IMG/VR virus record: IMGVR_UViG_3300033120_000148
Location: 11,764 to 75,763 of that record
Direction: 5' to 3' (one strand)
DNA from: a virus
Lineage: Duplodnaviria > Heunggongvirae > Uroviricota > Caudoviricetes > Crassvirales
Length of the DNA stretch: 64,000 nt
Of this stretch, positions 1 through 58,121 are shown one piece after another. A program made the translations under genes and the position numbers. The notes beneath the pieces were generated by a model. It worked only from the letters and a program-made list of their open reading frames with translations, was not told the DNA's origin and did no database searches. Each line of letters starts with the position of its first letter. The stretch's first letter is position 1.

Positions 1-1
1 T

Positions 2-36
2 TAAGGAGAGTTGATTTTTCAATTCTCCTTATTTTT
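2..36 (+). terminator. Rho-independent terminator: 12-bp hairpin (AAGGAGAGTTGA/TCAATTCTCCTT, one G.U) followed by ATTTTTTAT
   Basis: Inverted repeat plus T-tract read directly. Likely ends an upstream plus-strand gene outside the window. Confidence 0.5.
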
Positions 37-100
37 TATATATAGTAAATTACTATATAAGTACAATAAATTTAATAAAATCCTTGTTACATTGATATAT

Positions 101-121
101 TTTTAGTATCTTTGCAGCAAG
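101..121 (+). promoter_or_regulatory. Bacteroidota-type promoter, -7 element TATCTTTG (TAnnTTTG) inside extended motif TTTTAgTATCTTTGCAgCAA
   Basis: Sits ~28 nt upstream of the ATG at 142. A near-identical motif recurs at 6958-6978. Matches the Bacteroides sigma-A -7 consensus TAnnTTTG. Confidence 0.5.
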
Positions 122-141
122 GATTTTTAATATTATTAAAT

Positions 142-1382: not shown

Positions 1383-2089
1383 TGGAATCAAATTATATAT
1401 CAATAAAACAAATATTAGATAATGTTCTAGTGCATCCTATGTTATAGGATGTTACATTAGAAAGAGCTGTTTCCTATGCTATAGATTTTATGAGGATTGT
1501 AGGTATGCCTACAATATTCATGGAGAAAGTTACAACACTAGAATTAGTGGATAACAGAGTACTATTACCTGATGATTTCTTTGAAGTTATATAGATTAAA
1601 ATGACTTCAAATAAAAGGGCTGAGGTATTTAGAAGCTCTGGAGATAGTTTTCATATGGACACACCTACAGATGAGACATTGCAATCTCATGCTTTATAGG
1701 AACTAACCTATAAGATATAGGGAGGAGTTCTAATAGCTTCTGTATCTACAGGAACTATATCTTTAGCTTATAGAGCCATCCCTTTAGATACAGATGGTTA
1801 TCCATTAGTAATAGATAATAGTCCATTTACTAGAGCTTTAGAATTATATATTAAAAAGTAGGCTTTTACTATCTTATTTGACATGAATAAGATACCTATG
1901 AATGTGTATTAGAACACAGTTAGAGAATATGCTTTTGCAGTAGCTTAGGCTTCCTCTTCTCTTACAAGACTTAATATAGACCAAATGCAAAGCTTTACTA
2001 ATATGTGGAATACTCTAATACCTAGAGTAACTGAGCATCATAATAGTTTTAAAACATTAGGTTCTCAGGAAAAATTAAAAATGTAGTAA
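1382..2089 (+). CDS. Hypothetical late/virion protein, 235 aa, TAG read as sense, TAA stop
   Basis: Frame starting at ATG 1382 runs to TAA 2087-2089 with ~12 in-frame TAG and no TAA/TGA. Confidence 0.55.
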
Positions 2090-2090
2090 T

Positions 2091-6863: not shown

Positions 6864-6887
6864 TGTAGTATAATTATATATAATATA

Positions 6888-6937
6888 ATGGGTAGATTAA
6901 GTTAAATCTTAGTCTACCCATAATTATTTTAATTAAG
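6888..6937 (+). terminator. Rho-independent terminator: 14-bp stem (ATGGGTAGATTAAG / CTTAGTCTACCCAT, one U.G), 6-nt loop, then AATTATTTTAATT
   Basis: Perfect inverted repeat immediately after the TAA of the 1590-aa gene, followed by the promoter motif at 6958-6978. Confidence 0.6.
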
Positions 6938-6957
6938 TTATTGTATATATCAATAAT

Positions 6958-6978
6958 TTTATTTATCTTTGCAACAAA
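6958..6978 (+). promoter_or_regulatory. Bacteroidota-type promoter, TATCTTTG -7 element inside TTTTATTTATCTTTGCAACAA
   Basis: Second copy of the motif seen at 101-121. Sits ~19 nt upstream of ATG 6990. Confidence 0.5.
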
Positions 6979-6989
6979 ATTTATATAGT

Positions 6990-9416
6990 ATGACTAAGAA
7001 ACAAGTTATAAGAAAGTCTAATAGAACACTAAATATATTTGCAGACGGAGGAACTACTGATAAAAAACCTACTGACAGTAAAGGATCTATTATAAATTCA
7101 TTATCAGGAGTTGGAGGGTCACTAGTAGGATCTATTGGTGGTGGTCTAGTTGGTGGTGGATTATAGTCTGGAGCAGGCTCTGCAATAAGTGGAATTGGAT
7201 CTACTGTTGGTGGAGCAGTTGGAGCAGTTAATCCATTACTGGGTGGTATAATAACAGCAGGCTCTGGTATTGTAGGAGGTTTAACAAATAGGATGTTTGG
7301 TTCTAAATTAAATAATTAGAAAATATCAGATATTTAGAGTTAGAATAATACTTTAAATACTACTATGCTTGATAGTAGTAATAATGATACTGTAGCTAGT
7401 TAGTGGGCATCATAGGGTTTTGGTGATAACTTTACTAGATCTGATATAGGAAAAGATGGCTGGTTTAGTAATAAAGCTGAAAATAAATATAAAGAATTAT
7501 AGCTTCAATAGAATGTTGCTAGAAATAGAATGATGGAGTCATATAATAATGCTGCAGATAATGCTGATGAGACTTAGGACTAGTTAGCTTTAACTAACTT
7601 CGCTGCTTATGGTGGACCACTTAATATATATGCTGAAGGTGGTAATCTACATTAGAAAGCTGTTACATATAAAAATAGGTTAGAAGCTGTAAGAGGACCT
7701 ATGAATGATGACTATGACTATACAGGATACTATATGAAGTATCCTAAAAAAGCAGAGGCAATGATTAAAGGAGATAAAAAAGCTCATTTTACTGATGAAT
7801 TTAAATTACCAAATCATGCTACTTTCTCTGATGAATCTATATACTCTAAACAAAGAGGTGGTGGAACTTAGGAAGGTGGACACTGGGGTTATTCAAATGG
7901 ACATGATACATTTAATGTATCTCAAGATAACTTTAATAATAATCCTAATCTTGGTTAGTATTTTATGCAGAATGAACCTAGTAGTATTCCTATATATAAT
8001 GGGGGAATATTATTACCACAAGTTACTATTTAGGGTAATAGATTTGCAGAAGGTGGTGAACTAGATGATTTAAATAATCATGGAGCTACTTGGTCTAATG
8101 GAGTTACATATATTAATAATGGTGGAACTCATGAAGAAAACCCTAATGAAGGTGTTTAGGTTGGAGTAGATTCTTAGGGAAATCCTAATCTAGTAGAAGA
8201 AGGTGAGGTAAAATGGAATAACTATATATTTAGTAATAGAATATTTGCTAATAAAAAAGGCTTAAAAGCTAGTAATTTGCCTACATCTTTAGATAATAAT
8301 TCATTTGCTTCAGCAGCAGAGAAAATTAGTAAACAATCAAAAGAGATGCCTAATGACCCTATTAGTAAAAGATCATTAAATGTATCTCTCTCAAGATTAT
8401 AGTAGTTACAAGAAAGTATGAGACAAAAGCAAAATAAAACATAGAATAGTAATCCTAATAAATTTGCAATTGGAGGTCCAACTGGAGATACATTTGAAGC
8501 CCCATTCAAAATGAGAGCTGATGGTACTTATCCTATTAATGATACTTATAGTTTACCTATTTAGAACCCAACTAAAGATTCAACTAAACGTGGTAAATTA
8601 TCATTATCTGATACTGCAATATCAGATATGTATAATGATAATTTAGTTAAATCAGCTACAAATACTAAGCTTGGTTTTAAGGTACCAGATATGGTAACTA
8701 CAACTAAGAAACCTCCTAGTGATCCTAATAATTTTGACAAGGGATTACCATTTTTAAGATATGCCCCAGCTATAGGTTCTGGTGTAGCAGCTTTCACTGA
8801 TATGATGGGATGGACTAATAAACCAGACTACAGTGGAATAAATAAAATAAGTGACACTGTAAATCACATGTCACCTGCTTCATATAGACCCATAGGTGAC
8901 TATATGACATATAAGCCACTAGATAGAAATTACTATTAGAATATGCTTGACTCATAGGCTGAATCTACAAAGAGAGGTATAGTTGAATAGTCAGGTGGAA
9001 ATAGAGCTACAGCTATAGCAGGTTTACTTGCAGCAGATTATAATGCTTAGAGTAAAGTTGGTGAACTAGCTAGATAGGCAGAAGAGTATAATCAAGGACT
9101 AAAGGAAAGGGTTAAATCATTTAATAGAGGTACAAACTAGTATAATTCAGACTAGGCTCTAAAAGTAGATGAACTTAATATGAATCTTGATAGACTTAAA
9201 TATGAATCTTCTGTACAACAAGCACAAATGAGATAGGAAGCTTTAGCTAGAGCTACTGCTGCTAGAACTGCTAATATTTCTAACTTCTTTAATAACTTAG
9301 GTGGTATTGGAAGAGAGGATACACAGAAGAATTGGATTAGATCAAACCCTGGTTTCCTATATGATATTAGTGATAACGGTATATCTTATAAAAATAAAAA
9401 GAAAGGAGGTAATTAA
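6990..9416 (+). CDS. Virion structural protein, ~808 aa, Gly-rich N-terminus (GGSLVGSIGGGLVGGGLQSGAGSAISGIGSTVGGAVGAV), TAG recoded
   Basis: Frame 0 from ATG 6990 (the track's 6969 start is a TTG) to TAA 9414-9416. Contains track fragments 6969 and 8628. Many in-frame TAG, no TAA/TGA. Confidence 0.6.
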
Positions 9417-9417
9417 T

Positions 9418-11205
9418 ATGTCAGATTATAGTTTAGTTGTAAATTCACAATTTTAGCCATTTTCATATTAGGAAATGTTAGCTCCTGTGTTACAAGCAAC
9501 CTAGGCACAGCAAGATATAGAGAATCAGTATAGTATGCTTGATTCTGAGGCTAATACTATTTAGTAGAGAGCTTTAACAGATAGTAATTCTGAATGGGCT
9601 AAGAAATATACTACTTATACAAAATAGTTAGAGGACTCTGCTGCAGATTTAGCAGCAAATGGTTTAACTCCATCATCTAGGAGTTCTTTATTAAAATTAA
9701 AAAGAGACTATTCAAGCAATGTAAATCCTGCTTTAATGGCTATCCAAAGATAGGCTGAAATAGCAAGAACTTAGTAGGCTAAAAATGGTGAGGGAGTAAG
9801 AATGGTTTATGGAGCAATGCCTTCCATTGACTAGTTGATAGCTGATCCTAATTTAGATAGAGTTAGTTATAGTGGTAAGGACATTGAAGCTTCTGCTGCA
9901 AATTCTGCTGCTGCTGCTTCTGCAAGACATGTAATAGATAACTTTAAGAAAGACCCAGCTAATGCTGGTTGGATGAAACATATTAAAGAAACTGGATATA
10001 GTTCACAAGCATTTAATGCCTTACTTAATGAAGCTAAGAATTCAAGTGATCCTAATGTAAATATATTAGCATAGATTACAAATTAGGTTAAGCAACAATT
10101 TGGTAACTTTGAAGGAGTATCTGATGTAGATAAACATAGACTAGAAGGTGAAATACTATCAGGTTTATTCAAAGGTTCTGTATATAGAAATGAGGATAAC
10201 TATTAGACAGATCCTATCTATATGGCTAATTTACAATCTAGTCTTGAGGAAGGTAGATAGATTAGAGCTGAGAATAGAGCACTTGCTAGAGAGAACCCAG
10301 GTAATACATCTACTAATGGTGTAGCACCTAATCCTATTAATATGTATTCTCCTAAAGAGAAGAAGGAACAAGCTGATGCAATATCTAAATTTAAGCAGTA
10401 TTTCTATAGAGATAACTCTGGTTAGGTTAAAATGACTTATAAAGGACTACAAGAATATAGAAGAAATGCAGCTATAGTACCAACTGTAGCAGGGTCTGGT
10501 GGAGGAACAGCAGCTTTAATGAATGCAGAAACAGCTATGGGTAGAAAGAGAGGTTATCAACCTACTTAGTTCAAAGTATTTATGGATAAACTTGGTGCTA
10601 ATCATTATATAGATAGTAAGAAATTTAAAGGTGGTAAGGGTTGGCAACCAGGCAATGTAGGTAATCTTTGGTCTAGATATAGTTCTGCAAATAATGCAGG
10701 TAAATATGATGCTACTAAAGCTACTCAATATGAGTATAAAATTGCTAAAGATCAATAGGATCTTACAAAGGATAATATAGTTATGGCTTTAAAGAATTAG
10801 CCAGCATATGAAGTAGCATTTAATGGTACTACATTAGCTAGAACTCATAAAGTTCTTTCATATAGTGATCTATATACAAATGGTAGAGTAGTAGCTACAA
10901 GATTGAGTCCTTATGGTAATACATTTGTAGTCATTGATAAATCAGGAAAGGTTAGTGAATATGAAATGCCTCCTGGAATTAATCCTACTAATGAAGGTAA
11001 CAGAGATAAATTGCTAAAACAATTACCTACAATGTAGTAGGTATTAAAAACTGGCAAAGCTGGTAATCATATATTAAAGCCTAAGGAAAAGGAAGACTTA
11101 CAAAGTCTATATAATTAGAATATATAGAATGCTTACATGTATAACTCTTAGCTCAATGTAACTAATACTACAGAACCTTAGAAGGCTTATCCTTATTCTT
11201 ATTAA
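9418..11205 (+). CDS. Hypothetical virion protein, ~595 aa, TAG recoded
   Basis: ATG overlaps the previous stop (TAATATG). Frame 1 contains track fragment 9835 and ends at a triple TAA (11203-11211). Confidence 0.55.
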
Positions 11206-11213
11206 TAATAAAT

Positions 11214-14200
11214 ATGGGAACATTAAAATAGGTAAAATAGAAACCAATAGATATATTGAAAACTGGTCCTGCCAGTTTTAGAGAACTACAATAGGCTAAC
11301 CAGTCAAACTTTAGTCCTTAGTATTAGGCATTTGTAAATGACTTAAAGATTAAGTCTCAGCCAACATCATTATTTGATGCTGCTGCTTAGGCTTAGCAGG
11401 ATGTTGCTTCTCCATTAAATAATAGTGAAACACCATGGGGTAAAAGTAAATTTGATGCTACTTCAGCTAATGATAACACATTTAATAATTTAGGTGATAT
11501 TAGAGCTGAAAATGAACCTTGGTATGATAAAATAGGTGCAGGTATTTCTAAGGGAGCAGTACTAGCAGGTACTACTTTCTTAGATGGTACTCTTGGTTTA
11601 TTATATGGAGCAGGAACTGCAATTTCTCAAGGAAGAATATCAGGTATTTGGGATAATGATTTCTCAAGGTCTATGCAAAGTATTAATAATTATATGGAGA
11701 AAGAACTTCCAAATTATTATACTTAGAAAGAACAATAGGCAGCTTGGTATAGTCCAGATAATATATTTACAGCTAACTTCCTAGGAGATAAATTTATAAA
11801 GAACTTAGGATTTAGTATTGGTGCTTTTTATTCTGGTGGTGTTACAGCCTCTGGATTAAAATTAAGTCAATTACCATAGTTAATTGAAAAAGTAACAGGT
11901 ATAACAAATGCAGCTAGTCATGTAACTTCTGCTGTAGGTGCAACTATATCTGCTGTTAATGAAGGTAGAATAGAAGCCCTTAATAATTCAGGAGATTGGT
12001 ATAAGGCTTAGAAGACTATACTTGATGACAAATATAAATCAAGAATAGAGGCTATTTAGTAGTAGTATCAAGCTAATGCTAACAGACAAATGATTAAAAC
12101 TGCTGAGGGTTCTTATGTAGATCCTGCTTATTTACAATATAAGCAAGATATAGCTAGAGAATAGAATTCATATCAAGGTACTCTTAGAAAGATGAATGAA
12201 GACAGGTTACATATGGGCAATGTTGATTTATTAATGAACTTACCTATATTAACTGCTTCTAATCTTATATAGTTTGGTAAGATGTATGCTAATGGATTTA
12301 AGACTGCTAGAAAGACTACAAATATTACTGGAGGAATTGGTAATTATGCAGCTAATACATCTAATGCGAGAGCTGCTCTTGCATTCACTAAAAGTGCTTT
12401 ATCAGAAGGTAATGAGGAAGTACTTCAATAGGCTGCTAGTAATATATCTGGAGATTATTATGCTACAGATGTAAATAACTATTATAAAGCTAAAACTGAT
12501 CCTAAGGCAGCTAAAGATACTCTAAGTTGGACAAAAGCTTTTGCTTAGGGAATGAATGAAACATTAAATGATAACTCATCTTGGGAATAGTTCCTTATAG
12601 GTAGTATAACAGGTGCACTTGGTATGCCTAGATTTAGGTCTATTAAGAATGCAGAAGGTCATTTTCAGTTTCCAGTAACTTTAGAAGGAGGTGCTTATAA
12701 TCAGTTTAAAGATTATAGAGAGGAAGCAGCTAGAACTCAAGGAGTAGTAGATTATTTAAATAACAGAGTTAACTCCCCTGATTTTAAGAATTACTATCAA
12801 GGACTTGTTAGACATAATAAGTTCTAGAATGATATGAATTAGGCAGTAGATAATAATGATGATTTTAATTTCAAGAATGCTGAGCATTCTCAATTAGTTT
12901 CTGATGTTTCCATGTTTGCAAAAGCTGGAAAATTAGAAGATCTAAATACATTAGTGAAAGCAGCTTATGATACATCTGATGATAATTTAAAATCTATTAC
13001 TGAGAACACTACAACTAAAACTCCTAATGGTATATCTGGTCCATTTGTAGACTCTAGTGGTAATCCTATGTATGCTACTGAAGCAGGTAAATAGGAGATG
13101 ATTAATAAGCTTACTAAGTCTAAAGATGAGATAATGAAGGAAGTAAATAACTATAGTAAGATAAGAGACTAGATTAATGCAAGTACTAATGAAGCTCTTA
13201 CTGATGATTAGCTTGATGAATTAACTTGGATGACTTCTTAGATAGGTAACTTTGAAGACAGATCTACTGAGATGGCTAAGGATATTAAAACTTCTATATC
13301 TAAAGTTATAGGTAATCTTTCTTCTAAATTATCTTTGGCTACACAAATTAGACATCAAGAAGGTAAGGACCATGCAGATTTAACACCTGTTTACAGACAA
13401 GCAGATAAAGCAGTTATCAACTTAACTAAGACTATGGATAGTTTAAACTCACTACAAAGTCGAAGTGATGATTCTATGCTAAGTGCTTTAACTGATAACC
13501 CAGAAGTTGTAAATTACTTAAATAAGCAAATAGATAATCTAGATGAATCTGTACTAGATAAAGAATCTAAGAAAGATATAAATTAGAAATTGAATGATAT
13601 TCTTAAACTTGGTAAAGCTATAGATGTATTTAGAAGTAAACTAGATGAATACACCAATAACCCTGCTAAATAGTAGGAAGACCATGCTAAGATTGATACT
13701 GATAAAATAAAGGAAGAAGAGGCAAATAAGAAAGCATCTATAAAAGATAGATTAAGAAATGCTAAAGATTTATAGGAGTATAGATCTATATTAAGTGATG
13801 AGGAAGATGACACAGATGATGCTGTAAAAGACTTACAAAATGAGAACCATAACTTAACTATAACTAATAAAAAGATTAATAGTAGGTATAGAAGCTTGCA
13901 AAATGCTATACTTAATAATAAAGATATAGATGATGAAACTAAGTAGGATGCTCTTGATATGTTGGATAATCATTATAATAAAGCCAAATCACTTGGTGAA
14001 TTCAGAGATCCAAACTCAGCAAGTCTAACTGATGAAGACTACTTCAATCATGATACAGGATTTAATGAAGGGTCATCTAATGATAGATTTTAGAAAGCTA
14101 AATATGCAATTGATAAAGCTTTTGAAAAGGTAGTTAAGGATAATAACTTCATGAGGTCTCTAGCTTAGTAGCAGCCATTACAAGATATAGTTAGGCAGAC

Positions 14201-17200
14201 TACTGAAAAAAATGGAGTTAAAATAACTAAATATGGAAGAAGAAAAGGAGATAAAATAATTAATGGTACTGGTCCTAGCATAAGTAAAGATGATATTCCT
14301 GAATCAGAATTAGAAACTATTGAAGGCCTACTTGATGATATGGGAGATACAGCTAAGTTAGAACTGATTGAATTAAGAGAAAGGGATGGAAAATATTCTG
14401 GAACTGTAAGACTTAATGGGCAGATAAGTGGTGCTCCTATTAATGAAAAATTTGAATTTCTATTTGATAAAAATCCAGATAAACTGAGGGGTGTAGATAA
14501 AGAAGAAACAGGAGATAGTAAAACAGCAACAATACCAACAGAAGATAATTCAAATGAATTACCCAGGACAATTAATGAAATACCTGTAGGTGATTATTCA
14601 ATAGATGAAGTTAAAGAAGAGAATAAAAACTCTGATACTAATGATAAGAAACTTACATCTAAAGATAATTCTTAGTACTATATTCCTGCTGTACCAGAGT
14701 TGGATATTGAAGCTAGTAGAAATGGTGATTATAGAAACTTTGATGAAGTTAAAAAGGAGTAGAATCCTAAACTAGATTTCTCTAAAATATATAATTATTT
14801 ATCTAGTAATAATGCTTTTTCATATGTAAATGAAGGTAATCTTAAAGAAGGTGATAGATTAGGTTTTATGATAGATCCTAACTTTAGTGATACTACTATA
14901 TTTATTATTGATAAGAAAAATAATTAGATAGTAGGTTCTCTATTTGAGTCTGATTATAAACTAAAACAGTATGAAGGCTTGGAGCAATTAGTTAACAAGA
15001 TATATCAAGAATATAAAAATAGAGAAGATAGAAATTCTAAATTTATAGCTACTCCTACTACAAGAGTGTCTTAGATGCTTGTAGGTAGAATTCCATATAT
15101 TGCAGATGAAAAGAATCTAAAGAATGTAATAGAAGAAGGTAAAGCTAATAGTACTATTTTTGGCATAGTTAAAAATGGGTCTATTACTACTAATGAAGCT
15201 ATTCCTAGTGATTAGATTATGATGCACTCTGGATTAGATGGTAAAGAAGGTAGATTATATATGTTACTATCTAATGCTGCAGGTAAATATTCACCTGTAG
15301 CTGTGAGAGTAAAGCACTTTAATGCTGATGAATTTAATCTAGATGATGCTACTGTAGCAGAAACACCAATGGGTAAGAGTATTTCTAAAGCTATAAATGA
15401 TTTAGCTAGATCCTCATCTTAGGAAGACATAACTAATGCAATGGTTAATCTAATATAGGATATTCATCTGCAAGATGAGATAATTACTCCTATGGAGAAT
15501 AACAAAGGTAGAGGTATTCTTATAAGTTCTAAGGTCAAGGGAGCAGATGGTAAATATGAAATGGTTGAAATAGATGGTAAATAGTATATTAAAGAAACTA
15601 GAATACCTATTTACTTTACTAAAGAGGTTAAACCAGTAGAAAAGAATGGACTAAGTCTAGAATTTTCATCATTTGAAGCGGCTGATATTCCTAGTAGTAG
15701 TGTAGAGATGAAGCCTGTTTAGGATATAGTAAAGGAAATAACAAATGCTTTATATTCATTGAATAAACCTTTACAAGTAAGTACTGGAAGAATTAATTAG
15801 TCTGGATATAATGCTAGAATAATTAACTCAAATATACTTTCATCAAATATTAGTTCTACTAAAATTAAAGGAAGTTTCTTTACAACAGATTACTTTGATA
15901 AATCAGGAAATCTACATGCTGCTATAACAGTAGCAAATAATAGACCTTCAGTAGGAAGAAAAATTGAAACTGTTGTTGGTGGAAAAGAGAGTGCTATTCC
16001 AGGAACTCCTGTAAATCTTAATAATATATAGTACTATGTTGATTTATCTACTAAGGAAATAAGAGATAAATTCAATAATAAAGTTACTACTAATTAGGAT
16101 TTACTATTTAATCTAGCTTGGGTAAGAAATAACTATGGTAGATTAAAGAGTACTGGTGCTATTAAAAATAATAAAGTTTTATTGCCTGATGGTAGGGCAC
16201 TAGATATTAGTAAATAGAAGATATTAAGTGGAAAAGAGTATGATAAATTTATAGATTCATTAGATGCTGTAAAAGAGAGTACAGAAGCTAATTACTAGGA
16301 TGGATTAAAGGCTGTAGAGCAAATGCAAGAAAACTAGAAATTAGTTGATAGTCAGACCTATTCTATATTGGAAGATGATGGTAATTATTATGATTATACT
16401 CCTGCTGTAGATAAAGCACAATCTAGAGATACTATTTTAGACAATGGTCTTCACACATTAATACTATAGTTTTTTAATTCATCTGAACCTATAGTTAAGC
16501 CTGATACTATGACTAAGAAAGCCTATTAGGCATTAATAGATTAGCTAAATAATATTAAAGAAGCTTTAGAAAATAGAGGTGAGAGATTTATATCTAATAA
16601 TATAACATTATTCTATAAGTATCCAAATGGAGATAGAATAGCTGCTAAGGTAGATATAATGACTATGGATAAAGATGGTAGATTTAGATTATATGCTGTT
16701 AGAAAATAGTCTTAGAATAAAGATGATATACAGAAGATAACTAAAGAATTATCTATTATGTCAAATCTATTTAGTTCTCAATATAACTTGCCTATTTATT
16801 CTATGGCTATAATACCTTTCTCTGTAAAAACAAGAGGAAATAAGGTATCTGAGACTAAATTAGAAAAGGGTATATCTATCAAATAGAATGCAGGTACTGA
16901 TACACCAGCTATAGGTAATATATAGAAAGCTAAATCTACATTACCAATATTTGAAAGTTCCTTAGAAACTCTAAAACCTATTAATGATGTTAATACTGAC
17001 AACAGATCATTAGATTCTGATACAATAGGTTATTTCTAGATTGAAGGTAAGTTACATACTGGTTATTTAATGCCTATAGGTAATATTGAAGGTAATGAGT
17101 TATATTTAACTAGAACTGCCAATATGACAAAAGGATTTAAAGACACTGTAGCTCATGCTGCAACTTATAATTATTTTGTAGTATTTCCTAATGGTGAAAC

Positions 17201-17717
17201 ATTTAATATTAAGAATAATAGCATTACAAAAGATCCTAAGGAAATGGCTAAAACAGCTATTAATCTTTTAAGTAAAAATCCTAATAGAGTAAAGGATATG
17301 TCTACTTCTGATACATTACTTTATAAAAAAGGTGAAGAGGTAACTTAGGAAGTTGAAAAACCTAAATTAACTACTGCTAATCTATTATAGAGTAGTAATA
17401 ATAAGTTAACAGCTTCTCAATAGACTGTATTAAAAGAGTAGGCTGTAGCTGATGTAGATGAAGAATTTGAAGATGATTTGGATCTAGATGATATTACTAA
17501 TATAGGTGATTCTATAATGAGTGGTCAAAAGGCTGATATTACAGATTCTAATAATAGTAAAGATGATAGTAAGATTGATGTAATTACAGATATAGATTAT
17601 GATTCACTATCAAATGATGCTAAAAAGTCACTGACTTCAAAAGGTTGGACAAAAGCAAAGTGGAATAAAGTATCTATTGCAGAGAAGTAGAAAGCTCTAA
17701 ATTGTCTAGGTTTTTAA
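11214..17717 (+). CDS. Giant virion/tail-type protein, ~2167 aa, TAG recoded (dozens of in-frame TAG)
   Basis: Track fragments 12624, 12912, 13272, 14340, 15219, 17070 and 17478 all share frame 0. Read through, they are joined only by TAG codons, ending at TAA 17715-17717. Confidence 0.6.
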
Positions 17718-32388: not shown

Positions 32389-33099
32389 CTATTTAATTTT
32401 TGATTTTAAATTATTTACAATGGTTTCTAACTCTTCTAAAGAGGCATCATTTTTTATTTTATTAGCTCTATAACTAATAATCCAAACATTACCTTTTATA
32501 TAACCTAAACTTGGAATAATTCTATCTAAAGATGGAGAATTATCAGAAGCTTTAGTAGTATTAGGTATTAATGTAATACCTAATAAAGGACATTTATCAG
32601 GTATAGGAATATCATCTATAGTAATATTAAAATCTAAATTTCTAAGTTTAGCTCTTCTTTTAGCTGATCTTAAAAGATACTTTTGATAAGAAATAGTATT
32701 ATTTACTCTCCTATCTTGATCTCTTTTATTAGATTTAATTACATATTCAATAGATTGTCTTTTTATTTTTTCTAAATCTCTTCTTCTTTTTAAGGCTTCT
32801 GGAGTATTTTGTATAATATGCTCACATTCTCTACAGAAACTTCTTCTGCCATATAGAGAATTTCCAACATTAAAATACTTTAAAAGTAATTCTTTACCAC
32901 ATTTAGAACAAGTCTTCTTTTGGTCTATACTAGCCTCTTTAGCTCTTTTCTTTCCTGTATATGCAGGATAATTACCAACTAATACCTTTTGTATAGTTAC
33001 TCTAGAAACATTGAATACACTTCCTATAGACAACAAAGTTTGTCCATTTTGGTACATTTCTATAATTTTATTAATCTGATCTTCAGTAAAATATATCAT
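32389..33099 (-). CDS. HNH-family homing endonuclease with N-terminal HTH, free-standing; uses a TAG stop
   Basis: N-terminal sigma-70 region-4-like HTH (QTLLSIGSVFNVSRVTIQKVL), Zn-ribbon CSKCGK..CREC, C-terminal HNH_3-like motif SLDRIIPSLGYIKGNVWIISYRANKIKND. Stop codon is TAG, with TGA two codons later. Confidence 0.7.
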   Translation of the reverse strand: MIYFTEDQINKIIEMYQNGQTLLSIGSVFNVSRVTIQKVLVGNYPAYTGKKRAKEASIDQKKTCSKCGKELLLKYFNVGNSLYGRRSFCRECEHIIQNTPEALKRRRDLEKIKRQSIEYVIKSNKRDQDRRVNNTISYQKYLLRSAKRRAKLRNLDFNITIDDIPIPDKCPLLGITLIPNTTKASDNSPSLDRIIPSLGYIKGNVWIISYRANKIKNDASLEELETIVNNLKSKIK

Positions 33100-33170
33100 A
33101 ATCTTTTTTTTATTATCCTACAAAGGTACAATAATAAATTGATATATGCAAATAATTCCACTGAAATAGA

Positions 33171-33970
33171 TCAGTGAACCCAATGCGTGTTTATTTCTGC
33201 ATCAGCAGGAATAGGCAAAGATTTACAATAAATAGCTGCAGCATCTTCCATTATTTTTTTTAATATAGATGGAAAATCTGTTATTTCTTCGGGGAACTCA
33301 CAATTTATTTCATCATGTACTTCTACACATAATTTAATTTTATTAAAATAGTTATTACTTACTATGTAGTTAAATAACATGATACTAGCTTTCTTTAAAA
33401 TTATAGCTCCAGTTCCCTGAGTTACTACATTTCTAGCTAATCTATCATAATTACCTGCTATTTTAAAATGTTTTCTAACTAGTAAAGCAATACTATCTCC
33501 AGTACCTTTATGATTTATTTTATAATCATCCCAAAATTCTCTAGTAAAACTATTTTGTACTGATAACCATTTATTAAAATCCCACCAATATAATCTAGTT
33601 CCAGTTAAAGGATTGATTAAAATGTAACCATTTTTTCTTACAAATTGTGATCCTTTTTTAGCAAAGGAAGAAACACCTATAAATTCCTTATCTAGCATAT
33701 CAATATAACTCTGAGCCTCTTCTACTGTACAATTAGCAGATTTTGCAATAGTTGGTGCTGCTGCTCCAAACATATATGCAAATTCTACACCTTTTACTTT
33801 CTTTCTCCATTTAGGGGCTAATGCCTTAACATCTGCTGCTGATTTACAACCACATTCTATACATTCTTTTCTGAATACAATCCAAGCAAACATATTATGA
33901 GTGTCTCCACTTCTTTCAAGAAATTCTTTTAAAAATTCTTTATCTTTGTATATATCTGCTCCTAATCTTG
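33171..33970 (-). CDS. polA: Family A DNA polymerase, exon 2 (motifs B and C)
   Basis: KKVKGVEFAYMFGAAAPTIAK is motif B (K..NFG..YG) and LCVEVHDEI is motif C (HDE). GDTHNMFA corresponds to Taq RDIHTETA. The N-terminal boundary is approximate and depends on the splice site. Confidence 0.8.
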
Positions 33971-35029
33971 CACCCATACTAGGGTGGACTATCCCTTCAC
34001 CTTATTTATAAAAACTTAGGTGTACCTATTATAGTCTCTGCACATTTCTATCTACTTTGAAAATTACCATTTAGGTGGATAGACTTTGCTCAGGGTTATC
34101 ATGCCAGATTTTCCCTGAATTTAAGGTATTTACACACTTCTACTTTCATAGAAGGAGAGCCATTTATTGTATTTTCTTTTTATAAAAATACAGGCATTAA
34201 AATATAACATACTACCTATAAATAAAACATCTTTTATTTTATAAACTTCTATATAATATAATTTATTACCATAATTATTAGTTCTTTCTCTTATATAAGA
34301 AGTAATATTATATTTATCTAAAAAATATTTTATTTGTTTTATAAAGTCCAAAGATTTACCACATATAAAAAAGTCAAGATGACCGCTACTTGGATGAAAA
34401 CCTCCATCACCATCAAATATGCCTCTTAATATGTTCCAATTTATAGGTGTATAAATTTTACAATTATAACTTTTATTATAGAAATTGCCTTTCCTTCTTA
34501 GCCAACACTCAGCATCATCATTTACAAATGCTACACTGTACATATAAGATGAATTAATTTTTTGAAGTACTTTTGATACTTTCAAAGAAGGGGATACAAA
34601 GTCTCTAAATTTTTCAACTATGTATCCATCCCTCTCATTTAATCCAAGAGATATACTATAAGTATATTTAGTACCACTTTTTTTACTAATATTTCCATCT
34701 GTAAGTAATAACCCAAGAAAGTAATCAGATAGTTCATCATTACTTTTAAATGGATTATGTTTACATAATCTTTGTACCTTCTGTGTACTTCTTAGAGGTA
34801 TATTATATCTCATAAGGACTCTTCTAATAGAAGTATTATAAGTATTCCACTTCTTTGCAATTTCTACTGTATTTAATCCTTTTTTATAGTCTTCTATAAT
34901 AGAGGATTCTTTTTCTTTTGAAAATTTACTCATATCTACATATTTAAATTAATATGCAAATATAAGCATTATAATCGTAATAACCAAATTATTTATAAAA
35001 TTTATTATGTTATATTAGTATTTTACTAA
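33970..35029 (-). mobile_element. Group I intron (~1.06 kb) inserted in polA immediately after motif A, carrying a LAGLIDADG homing endonuclease ORF
   Basis: Minus-strand 3' part contains group I core elements tgCAGAGACTAtaa (R-like) and AAGGGATAGTCC (S-like), whose GACTA/TAGTC halves can form P7. Exon 1 ends ..CDYSAEEL and exon 2 resumes (R)LGADIY..GDTHNMFA, which together match DYSQIELRxLAH. The HEG has its own ATG/TAA and is flanked by noncoding sequence. Confidence 0.7.
34130..34933 (-). CDS. LAGLIDADG homing endonuclease (intron-encoded)
   Basis: Two LAGLIDADG motifs: LGLLLTDGNIS and LRGIFDGDGGF. Confidence 0.85.
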   Translation of the reverse strand: MSKFSKEKESSIIEDYKKGLNTVEIAKKWNTYNTSIRRVLMRYNIPLRSTQKVQRLCKHNPFKSNDELSDYFLGLLLTDGNISKKSGTKYTYSISLGLNERDGYIVEKFRDFVSPSLKVSKVLQKINSSYMYSVAFVNDDAECWLRRKGNFYNKSYNCKIYTPINWNILRGIFDGDGGFHPSSGHLDFFICGKSLDFIKQIKYFLDKYNITSYIRERTNNYGNKLYYIEVYKIKDVLFIGSMLYFNACIFIKRKYNKWLSFYESRSV

Positions 35030-36400
35030 CTCTTCAGCACTATAATCACATGAAATAAATTTACTACCCTTTTCAGAAATAAAAGAACTTCTAGTTATTT
35101 CATCACTAGGTAATTGTTGTAAATTAGGATAAGAGCATGCTAGACCCTCTCTTTTCTGTTTATCAGAAGGTTTAATAGGTAAACCTTTTAGTTTAGCTAA
35201 ATCAGTATTTATCTGTGTACTACCACTAGATAACCTCCCTGAAATAGTACCTAATTGTTTAAATGATGTATGTATTCTTCCTGTAATAGGATTAATAGCA
35301 TTAAGATGACCCTGACCAAATGAAGTTACTACTTTGTGGTATTCCTGATGTTTAAAATATAGATCTAAGAAAGTATCATCTATACCTTTCTGAGAAATTA
35401 ATTGCTTTTCAATTACACTATCTTTTTCTTCCCCACTATTTTTATCAATAACTGTAGTATTAAATCCTAATAATTTAGCCACTTTAGTAACTTGCTTACT
35501 AGAACCCCAATCTATAGAACTTTTAAGAGTAGTATCATAACCAGTAAATAAATCTCCTTGATAATCTATGTAAGTAAATTGCTTTGTTTTTGGATTACTA
35601 GCAATATAATCATTTAAATCTTTAATAGATTTATTATAATTTATTCTATCAGTATTCATTTTAGCTTTCCACTTAACTTCATCTAGCTTTATACCACACC
35701 ATTCCATATAAGCTATAGCAGGTATATATTCACATTCTAATCTAATGCCATTATAACATCCTTTTTCATTACATAATCTTAACTGAATTAACATTATATC
35801 ATATAAATCTACTACATCATTAGCAGCATATTCAATAACTTTGTCATCTAGACCCCTCCAGATAATCTCTCCTCTTACAGTTTTATCCATTTCCTTATGA
35901 AGATACTTTAATTCTAAAGCCTTTAATGAAAAACTTAATTGATATAATAAATTATCATCTTTATCTTTCACTTTAATATAAGGAAAATCATAATTTCCTT
36001 CTTCATATTCTACAGGAGATATTTTCAAGTAAGGAAAACCTAGATATAATACCTGCTCAACTATCATAGTATCATATACTCTCAAAGGAATAATCTCATA
36101 CTTATAGAGAAATTGTAAATCAAACTTTATATTCTGCCCTATAAGTAACATTCTTTCTAGTTCCCCCTTATATTCTAAAGGAGAAATAGTAGTGCAATCA
36201 ACTACTATTTGAGTTGATTTATCAATACTACCAAATTGCATAGATAGAATATTACATATATGAGCATCTTTGCCAGATGTTTCTGAATCATACTGGCATA
36301 AGTTCCAAGACTTTAGTATATCTATAGATTCCTTTACAGATATATTTTTGAATAGGTCATTAGAAAATAATTCTTGATTTCTTGAAACTAAATATATCAT
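35029..36400 (-). CDS. polA: Family A DNA polymerase, exon 1 (3'-5' exonuclease domain + palm through motif A)
   Basis: Exo I YDSETSG, Exo II GQNIKFDLQFL, Exo III YAANDVVDLYD. Pol motifs TGRIHTSFKQLGTISGRLSS, PNLQQLP and motif A CDYSAEEL. Confidence 0.85.
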
Positions 36401-56541: not shown

Positions 56542-58121
56542 TAAAAAATTGATTTATTATCATGATTATCTACCATGATACACTTTGTATTCATTATAGT
56601 TAGAGCTACTGAAGCTGCATTTTCCAATGATACTCTAGTAACCTTAGCAGGGTCAATAATACCTGCTTCAATCATATCTACTATTTTATCATTTTTAGCA
56701 TCATATCCTATCCTATTACTAGAATCATAAACATCATCTACATCTGGTACATCCTTAGTAAATATATTAAATGGCTTTAATATAGCTTTTTCAACTATTT
56801 CAATACCTCTCTCTACACTAGGGTCTTCCTCTGTACTAGCTAAGTGGTGTAGTATCATAGATGCCTTAGCATATGTTGCACCACCACCTACTACAATACC
56901 TTCTTCCATTGCTGCATATATAGCACAGATAGCATCATCTACCCTATCTTTTCTCTCATTAACCTCAATGTCTGATTTACCACCTACTTTAATGACTCCA
57001 ATACTACTCTTAAATGTAGCTAATCTCCTCTCTAAAACTCTCTTTACAGAGTCATCACTTGAATTAGTAATTAGATTTTCAATCTCTTTGCATCTATTAT
57101 CTATTTCAGTAGAAGATACTCCATCATTTAGCTCCATAAGAGTATAATTATTGGAGATAGTAGCAGAATTTACTTTTCCTAGCTTACTTTCATCTATATT
57201 TGCTAGTGTATTTCCTATTGAGTCATCAATTAAAGTAGCACCAGTAATAATACTAATATCCTTTAGTGTTTCTTCTCTATTATATGACATTCCAGGAGAT
57301 TTAATAACACACACATTTATCTTACCTCTTATATAATTATATACTAGAGCCTCAAGAGCTGTCTTTGAAATATCATTTACAAAGATAATTAGACACTGAC
57401 CACCTTCTTTGCTTTTACTAATAGCTGGTATTAAAGTATTAGCATCATCTACTCTGCCATTATAAACCAGCACACTAGGATGTATTAATTGAATTTTATC
57501 ATCATCATACTGAGAAGCAAAATTTGCATCTGCATAACCTCTATCTACCTTTGCTCCCTTATAGAAATCTAGATAAGATATATTATTATAAGCTATATCA
57601 GCAGTAACATAACAGTTAATATCCTTCTCAAAGGCTTGACTGATTAAGTCACTGATTGAACTGTCATTATTAGCTGAGATATATGCTACTTGCTTAATAG
57701 ATTCTAGATTATTAGCTACTTCAATATAGCTATCTTTAATATATTCTCCAACTGCATCCACAGCAATATTAATTCCCTCTTTAACTTTTCTAGCATCATA
57801 ACCCTCATCAATACTTTTAATACCTTCATTAATCATAGTTGCTGCTAGAATAGTAGTAGTTGTAGTACCATCTCCTGCTTCTTTAGCTGTCTTTATTGCA
57901 GCACCCTTAACTAAATCTGCACCCATCTTCTCAAATGGGTCTTGCAAATCTACTTCTTGTGCTACAGTAACTCCATCTTTAGTTATATAGGGATATTCAC
58001 TACCTCTATCAATAATTACTTCTTTACCATTAGGTCCTAATGTACTACCAACTGCTTCTGCTAGTATGTTAACACCCTCTTGTAATTTGTATATTGCATC
58101 AAATTTAACTGTCTTACTCAT
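56541..58121 (-). CDS. groL: GroEL-type chaperonin (Cpn60), phage-encoded
   Basis: TLGPNGKEVIID, ITKDGVTVAQEVDL, AGDGTTTTTILA, GGGATYAKAS and C-terminal GIIDPAKVTRVSLENAASVA all match GroEL along the full 526 aa. Confidence 0.9.
   Translation of the reverse strand: MSKTVKFDAIYKLQEGVNILAEAVGSTLGPNGKEVIIDRGSEYPYITKDGVTVAQEVDLQDPFEKMGADLVKGAAIKTAKEAGDGTTTTTILAATMINEGIKSIDEGYDARKVKEGINIAVDAVGEYIKDSYIEVANNLESIKQVAYISANNDSSISDLISQAFEKDINCYVTADIAYNNISYLDFYKGAKVDRGYADANFASQYDDDKIQLIHPSVLVYNGRVDDANTLIPAISKSKEGGQCLIIFVNDISKTALEALVYNYIRGKINVCVIKSPGMSYNREETLKDISIITGATLIDDSIGNTLANIDESKLGKVNSATISNNYTLMELNDGVSSTEIDNRCKEIENLITNSSDDSVKRVLERRLATFKSSIGVIKVGGKSDIEVNERKDRVDDAICAIYAAMEEGIVVGGGATYAKASMILHHLASTEEDPSVERGIEIVEKAILKPFNIFTKDVPDVDDVYDSSNRIGYDAKNDKIVDMIEAGIIDPAKVTRVSLENAASVALTIMNTKCIMVDNHDNKSIF

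What the first reader, a model, noticed from the sequence alone, without database searches (positions are those of the whole stretch)
33970..35029. Group I intron with a LAGLIDADG homing endonuclease splitting polA right after motif A
Exon 1 ends ..SCDYSAEEL and exon 2 resumes (R)LGADIYKD..GDTHNMFA. Joined, these reproduce the Pol I motif-A context DYSQIELRxLAH..RDIHTETA. The intervening ~1.06 kb has its own ATG..TAA ORF with two LAGLIDADG motifs. Its 3' part contains CAGAGACTA and AAGGGATAGTCC, which resemble the group I R and S core elements forming P7. The exact splice sites are ambiguous: sliding gives EELR or EESR, with U at the 5' site and a G in AUGGGUG available as omega-G.
Basis: partly seen in the sequence, partly recalled or inferred. 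Interest (0 to 1): 0.7.

Follow-up and report, generated by a model that had tools for sequence, protein, structure and literature searches.

The report
Mobile self-splicing intron in phage polymerase
The DNA polymerase gene of this crAss-like gut phage is interrupted by a 1,058-base self-splicing group I intron that carries its own homing endonuclease gene. This is a well-known kind of selfish element, found here in a lineage, at a site and in a form not yet annotated.

Summary
The finding holds. On the minus strand, polA is split by a 1,058-nt intron at 35028..33971.

- **Ribozyme.** Rfam Intron_gpI matches 34180..33967 at 58.9 bits (gathering score 50, E 5e-14). This hit appeared only when a 1.4-kb slice was scanned. 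Three larger scans (two of the whole window, one of four related loci) found nothing.
- **Splice junction.** The 5' exon ends at U35029, omega-G is G33971, and exon 2 starts at C33970. Ten intron-less relatives have ESRLGADIY at this point in one uninterrupted frame, and nine of them read AEESR exactly.
- **Endonuclease.** The 267-aa ORF (34933..34130) has an N-terminal helix-turn-helix and two LAGLIDADG repeats. The AlphaFold model has pLDDT 89, and its best fold matches are bI3 maturase, I-AniI, I-OnuI and I-SceI.
- **Architecture.** The ORF sits in the P1 loop and overlaps the guide sequence and P2. The 191-nt core resembles tRNA-Leu(UAA) (IC3-type) introns.
- **Relatives.** Eighteen related intron loci from crAss-sized contigs show strong covariation. 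They include ORF-less copies. They occupy two registers of motif A, 7 nt apart, and the window has the downstream one.

This is a new member of a known kind, of moderate interest. Splicing and homing are inferred, not shown.

The parts
35029..36400 (-). polA exon 1: 3'-5' exonuclease domain plus the N-terminal part of the polymerase domain. It ends ..SCDYSAEE plus the first base (U35029) of a Ser codon.
   Evidence: Pfam DNA_pol_A_exo1 and DNA_pol_A profile positions 29-124. Alignment to the uninterrupted Kolpuevirus PolA. Ten intron-less relatives read D[FY]SA.ESRLGADIY.
33971..35028 (-). Group I intron, 1,058 nt, 26% G+C. It starts UAGUAAAAUA and ends ..GGGUG (omega-G = G33971).
   Evidence: Rfam RF00028 58.9 bits. 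Family model R1 200.9 bits. Boundaries fixed by homologous junctions and by the family alignment.
35027..35035 (-). P1 5' strand: exon GAAGAGU (35035..35029) plus the first two intron bases UA (35028..35027).
   Evidence: It pairs with 34162..34154. The splice-site pair is U35029.G34160. There are 6 of 7 exon pairs, and the duplex energy is -5.1 kcal/mol. The same pairing co-varies with the exon sequence in 10 relatives.
34957..34988 (-). Promoter-like box TTTG-N20-TATATTTG, ending 23 nt before the endonuclease ATG.
   Evidence: One of only 3 matches in 64 kb. A TAnnTTTG box lies 17-24 nt upstream of the ATG in all 7 ORF-containing loci examined. The upstream TTTG was read by eye in the relatives. 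Promoter function is inferred.
34130..34933 (-). Intron ORF of 267 aa: helix-turn-helix (residues 6-42) plus a double-motif LAGLIDADG homing endonuclease. Its last 10 codons and stop overlap the guide sequence, P2 and J2/3.
   Evidence: Pfam LAGLIDADG_3 2.6e-12. PHROG 4645 endonuclease 1.5e-23. AF2 pLDDT 89.2 with two alpha-beta-beta-alpha-beta-beta-alpha repeats. Foldseek top hits bI3, I-AniI, I-OnuI, I-SceI, I-DmoI. D79 and D176 are invariant in 28 homologues.
34154..34162 (-). Internal guide sequence UGGCUCUCC. GCUCUCC forms the P1 3' strand. U34162 and G34161 pair first with intron bases UA and then with exon 2 bases CA (P10).
   Evidence: Sequence, duplex calculation, covariation with exon 1 across the family.
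33971..34161 (-). Compact ribozyme core, 191 nt, 37% G+C.
- P2: 34153-34148 / 34143-34138 (GAAA loop)
- P3: 34128-34124 / 34027-34023
- P4: 34118-34113 / 34095-34090
- P5: 34109-34107 / 34100-34098
- P6: 34089-34087 / 34044-34042
- P6a: 34083-34078 / 34052-34047
- P7: G34038 + 34036-34031 / 34992-33986 read as 33992-33986
- P8: 34022-34018 / 34002-33998
- P9: 33985-33982 / 33975-33972
- omega-G: 33971
   Evidence: Rfam alignment. RNAalifold on 10 relatives. On 54 distinct sequences, 87.6% of cells pair against 61.6% when shuffled and 33-44% when slid, and 35 of 38 pairs show a change on both sides. P7 is invariant and was not among the 38 counted pairs. P9 is well paired only within the polA family.
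33171..33970 (-). polA exon 2. It starts CA, completing the Ser codon UCA, then reads RLGADIYKD.. to ..HWVH*.
   Evidence: Pfam DNA_pol_A profile positions 165-379. Joined ORF 723 aa. A Pfam stretch at residues 420-721 crosses the junction.

Best explanation
A mobile group I intron interrupts the family-A DNA polymerase gene of a crAss-like (Crassvirales-related) phage, inside catalytic motif A.

**Splicing (inferred).** polA is transcribed through the intron. The last seven exon bases, GAAGAGU, pair with the guide GCUCUCC, which lies 868 nt downstream. This forms P1 with the canonical U.G pair at the cleavage site. The compact IC3-like core (P2-P9) folds, and an external guanosine attacks after U35029. 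P10 (exon 2 CA with guide UG) and omega-G33971, which sits directly after the P9 hairpin, position the second step. The exons are ligated to ..GAG U|CA AGA.. (..E-E-S-R..), giving a 723-aa polymerase.

**Mobility (inferred).** The P1 loop holds a gene for a helix-turn-helix plus double-LAGLIDADG endonuclease, preceded by a Bacteroidetes-type promoter box. The protein most likely cuts intron-less polA alleles of co-infecting relatives around ..GAGU^CAAGA... Repair then copies the intron in.

**Shown here:** the sequence features, family membership of the RNA and the protein, the exact junction, covariation, and patchy distribution among relatives.

**Inferred only:** splicing in vivo, endonuclease activity and target, and promoter use.
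For: - **Ribozyme.** Rfam Intron_gpI scores 58.9 bits against a gathering score of 50, E 4.8e-14.
- **Junction.** Ten uninterrupted PolA relatives read D[FY]SA.ESRLGADIY, nine of them AEESR. Only U35029 | G33971 | C33970 gives that sequence with a 5' U and a 3' G. The joined ORF is 723 aa with a contiguous DNA_pol_A match of 151 bits.
- **P1.** It co-varies with the exon:
  - window GAAGAGU / GCUCUCC
  - L002 CGGGU / GCUCG
  - L006 GAGAU / GUCUC
  - L007 AGUGGU / GCCACU
  - L003 and L013 GUGCU / GGUAC
- **Core covariation.** 87.6% paired against 61.6% shuffled, 35 of 38 pairs with double changes, covariation score 0.570 against 0.164.
- **P9.** P9 followed immediately by omega-G is conserved in the polA family.
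- **ORF placement.** ORF-less copies (L013, L008, L051) have a 46-nt P1 loop at the place where L003 carries the ORF.
- **Endonuclease.** Pfam, PHROG, the AF2 model and Foldseek all give a monomeric LAGLIDADG. Both catalytic Asp residues are invariant.
- **Patchy distribution.** The closest PolA relatives (62-69% identity) lack the intron, while more distant ones carry it.
Against: - There are no transcript data, so splicing is not demonstrated.
- P1 has one A.C mismatch and P10 is only 2 bp.
- P5 in the window is weak, at 3 bp.
- The Rfam alignment placed its P1 on a spurious local hairpin (34176-34150), so its 5' end is not informative.
- Larger Rfam scans (two of the whole window, one of 31 kb of related loci) give no hit because of speed filters.
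- Endonuclease activity and the promoter are untested.
Confidence: 0.9

Rival explanations
1. The polymerase is made as two separate polypeptides (an exonuclease/N-terminal fragment and a C-terminal fragment starting at M33977). These associate without RNA splicing. The intervening endonuclease gene is simply an inserted free-standing gene.
For: Both halves are open reading frames with their own stop and ATG. Split polymerases exist in nature (own knowledge).
Against: - The break falls inside catalytic motif A, between the conserved Glu and Arg.
- The ATG at 33977 lies inside the P9 hairpin of a ribozyme core that scores above Rfam's gathering score.
- The core co-varies across 54 distinct sequences.
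- The guide sequence tracks the exon sequence in each relative.
- ORF-less copies of the same insert exist. A free-standing gene insertion cannot explain these.
Confidence: 0.03
2. The intron is a decaying relic that no longer splices or homes, and polA is a pseudogene in a defective or mis-assembled genome.
For: P5 is short and P1 has a mismatch. There is no expression evidence. This is a metagenomic-style sequence.
Against: - All conserved core elements (J3/4, P4, J6/7-P7, J8/7, the P7 bulged A, omega-G) are identical to those of relatives.
- Both exons are intact and free of stops.
- The endonuclease ORF is full length, with both catalytic Asp residues conserved.
- A 98%-identical endonuclease occurs in several independent assemblies.
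- The window's guide sequence is the best matched to its exon among the +7-site clade.
Confidence: 0.05
3. The splice junction is 4 nt further along on both sides: the 5' exon ends at U35025 and omega-G is G33967. The product reads ..DYSAEELVLGADIY... P1 would be a local hairpin, GUUAGU / ACUAAU.
For: This also gives a U before the 5' site, a G at the 3' end, the same protein length, and a 6-bp local helix at -4.0 kcal/mol. The Rfam alignment happens to end at G33967.
Against: - No relative has L-V at this position. All ten intron-less relatives have S-R.
- The splice-site pair would be U-A, not U.G.
- P9 followed directly by omega-G is conserved in the family and points to G33971.
- The intron start UAGUAAA.. 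aligns with UAGCAAA.. of L002.
Confidence: 0.02

Closest known systems
Group I introns in phage family-A DNA polymerase genes (SPO1/SP82 I-HmuI and I-HmuII, Bastille I-BasI, PhiI/W31 I-TslI, phiL7, Pf-WMP3 I-PfoP3I)
   Same: A self-splicing group I intron carrying a homing endonuclease gene, inserted in a highly conserved, functionally critical part of a phage polA gene. Exon 1 stops soon after the 5' splice site (PMC3428280).
   Different: - Those introns are all subgroup IA2. They encode HNH nicking enzymes and carry the ORF in P6a or P8-type loops.
- They sit at other sites, in the finger subdomain (sites 676 and 881 and the SPO1 site; PMC3428280).
- This one has an IC3-like core and a LAGLIDADG enzyme in the P1 loop. 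It sits in motif A and is in a crAss-like phage.
tRNA-Leu(UAA) / Azoarcus-type IC3 group I introns
   Same: - A compact core of about 190-200 nt without P5abc.
- Near-identical J3/4-P4 (AAAUUCxGGGAAA), J6/7-P7 (GUGyAGAGACUA), P8 start (CACCUAAG) and J8/7-P7' (GGUGAAGGGAUAGUCC).
- The next-best matches to the family model (about 81-98 bits) include introns in tRNA-Leu(UAA) anticodon loops of viral contigs.
   Different: - This one sits in a protein-coding gene.
- It carries an 868-nt P1 loop with an ORF.
- P9 is a minimal 4-bp hairpin directly abutting omega-G.
- Subgroup assignment was not tested with subgroup-specific models.
Introns reported in crAss-like phages (Yutin et al. 2021, PMC7886860)
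   Same: Group I introns with endonuclease ORFs, including LAGLIDADG, split core genes of crAss-like phages. The same genomes use TAG or TGA recoding in late genes, as this window does.
   Different: - That study reports introns in Delta and Zeta group genes (MCP, PolB, primase, ATP_43b).
- It found them by their protein domains and states that alpha-gamma genomes lack such insertions.
- Neither a polA motif-A intron nor its RNA structure appears in the passages read.
- No GenBank phage record in the 50,697-record collection holds a close homologue of this endonuclease.
Monomeric double-motif LAGLIDADG endonucleases and maturases (I-AniI, bI3 maturase, I-OnuI, I-SceI, I-DmoI)
   Same: Two alpha-beta-beta-alpha-beta-beta-alpha repeats, each headed by a LAGLIDADG helix ending in a conserved Asp. 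Foldseek probability is 1.00 and TM is about 0.5.
   Different: - Sequence identity is only 12-19%, and a sequence search of the PDB gives no hit.
- There is an extra N-terminal three-helix HTH domain.
- Whether it also acts as a maturase, as the top fold matches bI3 and I-AniI do, is unknown.
Fungal mitochondrial group I introns with a LAGLIDADG gene in the P1 loop (for example Hypomyces cox3-i2, PMC4964425)
   Same: The endonuclease coding sequence is placed in the P1 loop, so the guide sequence lies far downstream of the 5' splice site.
   Different: Those are IA1 introns in organelles. Here the setting is a phage, the core is IC3-like, and a bacterial-type promoter box sits inside the loop.

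Membership tests
Group I intron (Rfam RF00028) | Covariance-model score at or above the curated gathering score | tested here: met
   58.9 bits against 50, E 4.8e-14, full model 1-253, on a 1.4-kb slice. Missed in whole-window scans.
Group I intron (Rfam RF00028) | Conserved core helices P3-P8, including the P3/P7 pseudoknot, supported by compensatory changes | tested here: met
   87.6% paired against 61.6% shuffled and 33-44% slid. 35 of 38 pairs show changes on both sides. P3 reads UACCU/AGGUA, CACCU/AGGUG, CAACC/GGUUG and UGCC/GGCA. P7 is invariant and was not among the counted pairs, so it is uninformative.
Group I intron (Rfam RF00028) | 5' splice site after a U that forms a U.G pair with an internal guide sequence (P1) | tested here: met
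   U35029.G34160 within GAAGAGU/GCUCUCC. U.G is present in all 10 family members tabulated, and the guide co-varies with the exon.
Group I intron (Rfam RF00028) | 3'-terminal guanosine (omega-G) | tested here: met
   G33971 directly follows the P9 hairpin. The arrangement is conserved in the polA family and is required by the homologous protein junction.
Group I intron (Rfam RF00028) | Guanosine-dependent self-splicing | not testable with these tools
   This needs an in-vitro transcription and splicing assay, or RNA reads.
Subgroup IC3 | Compact core lacking P5abc and P2.1, with core sequence like tRNA-Leu(UAA) introns | tested here: inconclusive
   P5 is a short hairpin. The nearest non-polA relatives by model R1 include tRNA-Leu(UAA) introns. 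No subgroup-specific models were available, so the call rests on resemblance.
LAGLIDADG homing endonuclease (double-motif, monomeric) | Pfam LAGLIDADG domain above the curated cut-off | tested here: met
   PF14528, 47.2 bits against 22.5, residues 168-231. The first repeat is not recognised by Pfam even at E<=10.
LAGLIDADG homing endonuclease (double-motif, monomeric) | Two alpha-beta-beta-alpha-beta-beta-alpha repeats forming a pseudo-dimer | tested here: met
   AF2 pLDDT 89.2. Repeats span residues 67-148 and 166-244. The listed top Foldseek PDB matches are two-domain LAGLIDADG enzymes, maturases and intein endonucleases.
LAGLIDADG homing endonuclease (double-motif, monomeric) | Acidic catalytic residue at the end of each LAGLIDADG helix | tested here: met
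   D79 (LLLTDG) and D176 (FDGDGG) are invariant in 28 homologues.
LAGLIDADG homing endonuclease (double-motif, monomeric) | Site-specific cleavage of the intron-less allele | not testable with these tools
   This needs a cleavage assay on ..GCTGAAGAGT^CAAGATTAGGAGC...
Family A DNA polymerase (host gene) | Exonuclease and polymerase domains with a motif A DYSxxE..R that is contiguous after intron removal | tested here: met
   The joined protein scores 151.1 bits for DNA_pol_A, with a stretch at residues 420-721 across the junction. It is 49% identical and collinear to Kolpuevirus PolA.
Mobile (homing) intron | Patchy presence among close relatives, with intact empty sites | tested here: met
   Nine relatives at 59-69% PolA identity have an empty site, for example L062 GCTGAAGAAT^CAAGATTAGGTGCT. 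The intron is present in 14 or more other polA contexts.

The most novel reading that the evidence does not exclude
One intron-plus-endonuclease lineage specialises on polA motif A of crAss-like phages and has re-targeted itself by 7 nt.

- Members with the closest ribozymes and endonucleases sit either after codon 4 (DYSx^) or after the first base of codon 7 (DYSxxE-S^R).
- In both registers the local sequence is [A/G]GU^CA[A/G]GA.
- That points to ectopic insertion at a look-alike site, by reverse splicing or relaxed endonuclease specificity, followed by adaptation of the guide sequence.
- The ribozyme core is shared with introns in phage tRNA-Leu genes.
- The endonuclease is driven by a host-type promoter inside the P1 loop. 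In some relatives that promoter overlaps the 5' splice site.
Probability: 0.5. Interest if true: 0.5.

Novelty: new member of a known kind. Interest (0 to 1): 0.35.

Why it matters
**Annotation.** Gene callers split this essential polymerase into two "DNA polymerase" fragments plus an unnamed ORF. This is visible in the called genes of related contigs. Standard whole-genome Rfam scans also miss the ribozyme. Similar introns in crAss-like genomes are therefore probably under-counted.

**Biology.** The element adds a polA motif-A intron to the mobile elements of Crassvirales-like phages. It differs from the classical phage polA introns in ribozyme subgroup, endonuclease family, ORF placement and site.

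**Study system.** The family numbers 360 endonuclease clusters. ORF-containing and ORF-less copies sit at two registers 7 nt apart. That makes it a compact natural system for studying how introns and homing endonucleases change target sites.

**Tools.** The endonucleases could be a source of new LAGLIDADG scaffolds.

None of this changes the basic understanding of group I introns.

Tried and rejected
- **Rfam on larger inputs.** Whole-window scans at gathering and at E-value thresholds, and a scan of four related loci together, all gave zero hits. This is a filter artefact, not evidence of absence. Only the 1.4-kb slice gave the hit.
- **EELR junction.** Rejected, because it needs an intron ending in A or C.
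- **EELV junction.** Rejected by homology and by the P9/omega-G register.
- **P1 at the relatives' "site 0" (after DYSA).** Only 3 contiguous pairs and -3.3 kcal/mol, and the frame would be wrong.
- **Sequence search of the endonuclease against the PDB.** No meaningful hit. The fold search was needed.
- **Pfam on the first LAGLIDADG repeat and the HTH alone.** Only sub-threshold hits.
- **Extending locus L005 to see its exon 1.** Failed, because the locus ends at a storage boundary.
- **ARAGORN with intron option, and brute-force intron removal.** These gave no calls or spurious calls. Joining at the visible anticodon-loop halves worked.
- **RNAalifold.** It cannot represent the P3/P7 pseudoknot and mis-paired P3 with P9. 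I replaced it with a covariance model and pair counting.
- **Further copies in the window.** A filter-off search for this intron family found none.
- **Literature.** Searches found no description of a polA motif-A intron in crAss-like phages.
Full report
**Observation**

All relevant features lie on the minus strand.
- ORF 36400..35015 ends ..FISCDYSAEELVKY*.
- ORF 33977..33171 begins MGARLGADIYKDKEFLKEFLERSGDTHNMFA.
- ORF 34933..34130 (267 aa) lies between them. It contains YFLGLLLTDGN and ILRGIFDGDGG.
- CAGAGACTA is at 34040..34032 and AAGGGATAGTCC is at 33997..33986.

Pfam finds DNA_pol_A_exo1 and DNA_pol_A (profile positions 29-124) in the first ORF. It finds DNA_pol_A (profile positions 165-379) in the last ORF, and LAGLIDADG_3 (47.2 bits, cut-off 22.5) in the middle one.

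**Is there a group I ribozyme?**

A whole-window Rfam scan found nothing, either at gathering thresholds or at permissive E-values. A scan of 33800..35200 alone gave Intron_gpI at 34180..33967 (-). The score was 58.9 bits against a gathering score of 50, E 4.8e-14, covering the full model.

The negatives therefore come from speed filters on long, AT-rich input. The same happened with 31 kb of related loci.

**Where the window comes from**

- The best annotated DNA match is Kolpuevirus sp. 'frurule', a member of Crassvirales and Steigviridae with a Bacteroides host.
- That phage has the same gene order: dUTPase, aspartyl protease, PolA.
- Its PolA is uninterrupted, 49% identical and collinear with the joined window exons.

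**Splice sites**

Kolpuevirus reads SCDYSAIESRLGADIYNEK at the junction. Nine closer relatives from IMG/VR (59-69% identity) all read D[FY]SAEESRLGADIYQDK in one uninterrupted frame. An example is L062, GCTGAAGAAT^CAAGATTAGGTGCT.

Only one cut gives that sequence together with a U before the 5' site and a G at the intron's 3' end. It is ..GAA GAG U(35029) | intron | G(33971) | CA AGA...

| Quantity | Value |
|---|---|
| Intron | 35028..33971, 1,058 nt |
| Spliced ORF | 2,172 nt, 723 aa |
| Pfam DNA_pol_A, joined | 151.1 bits, with a stretch at residues 420-721 crossing the junction at residue 458 |
| Pfam DNA_pol_A, halves | 50.2 and 88.5 bits |

The other readings fail.
- EELR cannot be made with canonical ends.
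- EELV (U35025 / G33967) has canonical ends but fits no relative.

**P1 and the place of the ORF**

The guide sequence is not near the 5' splice site. It is GCUCUCC at 34160..34154, just upstream of P2.
- It pairs with exon GAAGAGU (35035..35029), with U35029.G34160 at the cleavage site. Six of the seven positions pair.
- U34162 and G34161 pair with the first intron bases, UA. After the first step they can pair with the first exon 2 bases, CA, to form P10.
- The endonuclease gene therefore occupies the P1 loop, which is 868 nt long.
- Its last codons (..KWLSFYESRSV*) overlap the guide sequence, P2 and J2/3.

Three observations support this placement.

1. Homologous introns in other contigs show the guide changing together with the exon.

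| Locus | Exon end | Guide |
|---|---|---|
| window | GAAGAGU | GCUCUCC |
| L002 | CGGGU | GCUCG |
| L006 | GAGAU | GUCUC |
| L007 | AGUGGU | GCCACU |
| L045 | GUGGU | GCCAC |
| L003, L013 | GUGCU | GGUAC |

2. L013, L008 and L051 carry an ORF-less copy with a 46-nt P1 loop. Their close relative L003 carries promoter plus ORF at that place.
3. The window's intron start, UAGUAAAAUA, aligns with UAGCAAAUAA of L002.

**Core structure**

The helix coordinates are listed in the parts. P9 (ACCC/GGGU) directly abuts omega-G.

RNAalifold on ten relatives recovered P2, P4, P5, P6, P7 and P8. A covariance model built from 13 polA-family cores (R1) found exactly one copy in the window with filters off, at 200.9 bits. 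It found 70 copies in the fetched loci.

Pair counting used the 54 distinct sequences from those hits.

| Measure | Observed | Control |
|---|---|---|
| Cells forming standard pairs | 87.6% | 61.6% shuffled; 33-44% slid |
| Pairs changed on both sides | 35 of 38 | - |
| Covariation score | 0.570 | 0.164 shuffled |

P3 shows clear compensation: UACCU/AGGUA, CACCU/AGGUG, CAACC/GGUUG and UGCC/GGCA. P8 shows CACC/GGUG against CAUC/GAUG in L066. P9 shows ACCC/GGGU, AACC/GGUU and ACCG/CGGU. P7 is invariant and was not among the counted pairs.

**Subgroup**

Beyond the polA family, the next-best matches to R1 score about 81-98 bits. Removing 196-214 nt from five of them (81.6-97.3 bits) makes ARAGORN call tRNA-Leu(UAA).

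By established knowledge, tRNA-Leu(UAA) introns are the archetype of subgroup IC3, which lacks P5abc (PMC11835236). The core is therefore IC3-like. I could not run subgroup-specific models, so this stays a resemblance and is not a tested membership.

**The endonuclease**

- PHROG 4645 "endonuclease", 1.5e-23.
- 360 unnamed protein clusters at E<=1e-5, many on contigs of 98-118 kb.
- The AF2 model has pLDDT 89.2. It shows a three-helix HTH (residues 6-42) and two alpha-beta-beta-alpha-beta-beta-alpha repeats.
- The listed top Foldseek PDB matches are all LAGLIDADG-fold proteins: two-domain endonucleases and maturases (bI3 maturase, I-AniI, I-OnuI, I-SceI, I-DmoI) and intein-associated endonucleases.
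- D79 and D176 are invariant in 28 homologues. This fits an active enzyme.
- No close homologue exists in 50,697 GenBank phage records.

**Family, distribution and the 7-nt shift**

Every sampled context of this endonuclease family is polA motif A. The loci are L002-L008, L013, L045, L051 and L065-L071. Two registers occur.
- **Site 0**, after codon 4 (DYSx^): L002, L069, L006, L007, L045, L003, L004, L013.
- **Site +7**, after the first base of codon 7 (DYSxxE-S^R): the window, L065, L066, L067, L070 and L071. L005 probably belongs here too, judged from its 3' junction only, because its exon 1 could not be fetched.

The +7 members have the endonucleases most similar to the window's (66-72% identity). 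L002 is next at 58%. L002, L005 and L066 share the guide GCUCGCC.

The local sequence is similar in both registers, [A/G]GU^CA[A/G]GA. In the ESR lineage of PolA, the Ser-Arg codons UCA AGA recreate at +7 the CAAGA that encodes Gln-Glu at site 0 in other lineages.

I infer a single ectopic move to a look-alike site, followed by guide adaptation. The window has the best-matched P1 of the +7 clade. The mechanism, reverse splicing or relaxed endonuclease specificity, is not determined.

**Mechanism**

- *Shown:* the sequence anatomy, membership of the RNA and protein families, the exact junction, covariation, empty sites in the nearest relatives, and ORF-less variants.
- *Inferred:* co-transcription with polA, guanosine-initiated splicing that restores motif A, endonuclease cleavage of intron-less alleles during co-infection with copying of the intron by repair, and separate transcription of the endonuclease from the internal promoter-like box.

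Because the ORF overlaps the guide sequence and P2, translation through it should compete with ribozyme folding. This is a known feature of some bacterial introns (PMC3984707).

**Comparison with the literature**

- The phage polA introns compared in PMC3428280 (SPO1, SP82, Bastille, PhiI, W31, phiL7, Pf-WMP3) are IA2 with HNH enzymes, at other sites.
- A 2014 review says that phage introns mostly encode GIY-YIG, HNH, PD-(D/E)xK or EDxHD enzymes (PMC3984707).
- Yutin et al. 2021 reported dense group I introns, some with LAGLIDADG ORFs, in Delta and Zeta crAss-like phages (MCP, PolB, primase). They detected them by protein domains (PMC7886860).
- A LAGLIDADG gene in a P1 loop has a precedent in fungal mitochondria (PMC4964425).

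This is therefore a new member of a known kind. It is new in site, subgroup and enzyme combination, and host lineage, but not in principle.

**Verdict**

Interest is moderate to low (0.35). The most interesting residue is the two-register family and the host-type promoter inside the P1 loop.

Noticed in passing
window 1..17717 (+ strand): There is no ORF of 200 aa or more under the standard bacterial code. Six long ORFs appear (245-2183 aa: 79-852, 1352-2089, 2079-6863, 6957-9416, 9232-11205, 11166-17717) if TAG is read through, and none if TGA is. This looks like a late-gene block with TAG reassigned, as described for crAss-like phages. No tRNA gene, and so no suppressor, lies in the window. 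polA and the endonuclease ORF contain no in-frame TAG.
   Followed up: partly
window 33121..33152 (-), 34957..34988 (-), 57523..57553 (+): The Bacteroidetes-type promoter consensus TTTG-N19-21-TAnnTTTG (consensus recalled from memory) occurs only three times in 64 kb, against 1.28 expected by chance. Two of the three end 21 and 23 nt before the ATGs of the window's two endonuclease genes, the HNH ORF and the LAGLIDADG ORF. The mobile endonuclease genes seem to bring host-type promoters that the phage's own genes lack.
   Followed up: partly
L006, L007, L045 (intron 5' ends); also L002, L003, L004: A TAnnTTTG box lies 17-24 nt upstream of the endonuclease ATG in every ORF-containing relative. 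Read by eye in L006, L007 and L045, the upstream TTTG is formed by the last exon base plus the first three intron bases. The putative promoter therefore overlaps the 5' splice site.
   Followed up: partly
window 32389..33099 (-): A free-standing 236-aa ORF lies immediately downstream of the polA stop. It has an N-terminal HTH and a C-terminal HNH/endonuclease VII-like domain (PHROG 3322 1.2e-34, PHROG 1035 3.6e-22). Relatives L065-L067 have no such gene between polA and the DUF3310 or DUF1599 genes. It is probably a second, intron-less mobile endonuclease.
   Followed up: partly
L002 5134..6190; L003 5150..6035; L005 3629..2766 (-); L062/L064 2104..2267; L065 3963..4174: Many relatives carry a second group I intron further down polA. 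It has a different ORF: GIY-YIG in L002, and HNH-type in L003 and L005, placed after the core. Some copies may have no ORF. The window lacks this second intron; its exon 2 is continuous.
   Followed up: partly
L049, L039, L040, L031, L048 (IMG/VR viral contigs): Introns of 196-214 nt with the same J8/7-P7 17-mer sit in the anticodon loop of tRNA-Leu(UAA) genes on viral contigs, mostly within or beside tRNA gene arrays. A 2014 review stated that all phage introns known then were in protein-coding genes (PMC3984707).
   Followed up: partly
window, whole (method note): Rfam cmscan missed a bona fide above-threshold Intron_gpI hit when given 64 kb or 31 kb. It found the hit in a 1.4-kb slice. Negative whole-genome scans of AT-rich phage DNA should not be read as absence of group I introns.
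   Followed up: yes
L013 1467..1698, L008, L051: These are ORF-less copies of the same intron, about 230 nt, with a 46-nt P1 loop containing a 7-bp hairpin AUACUUA/UAAGUAU. They sit at the DYSA^LESR site of a PolA nearly identical to that of L003, which carries the ORF-containing version. This is a natural pair showing gain or loss of the endonuclease gene.
   Followed up: partly
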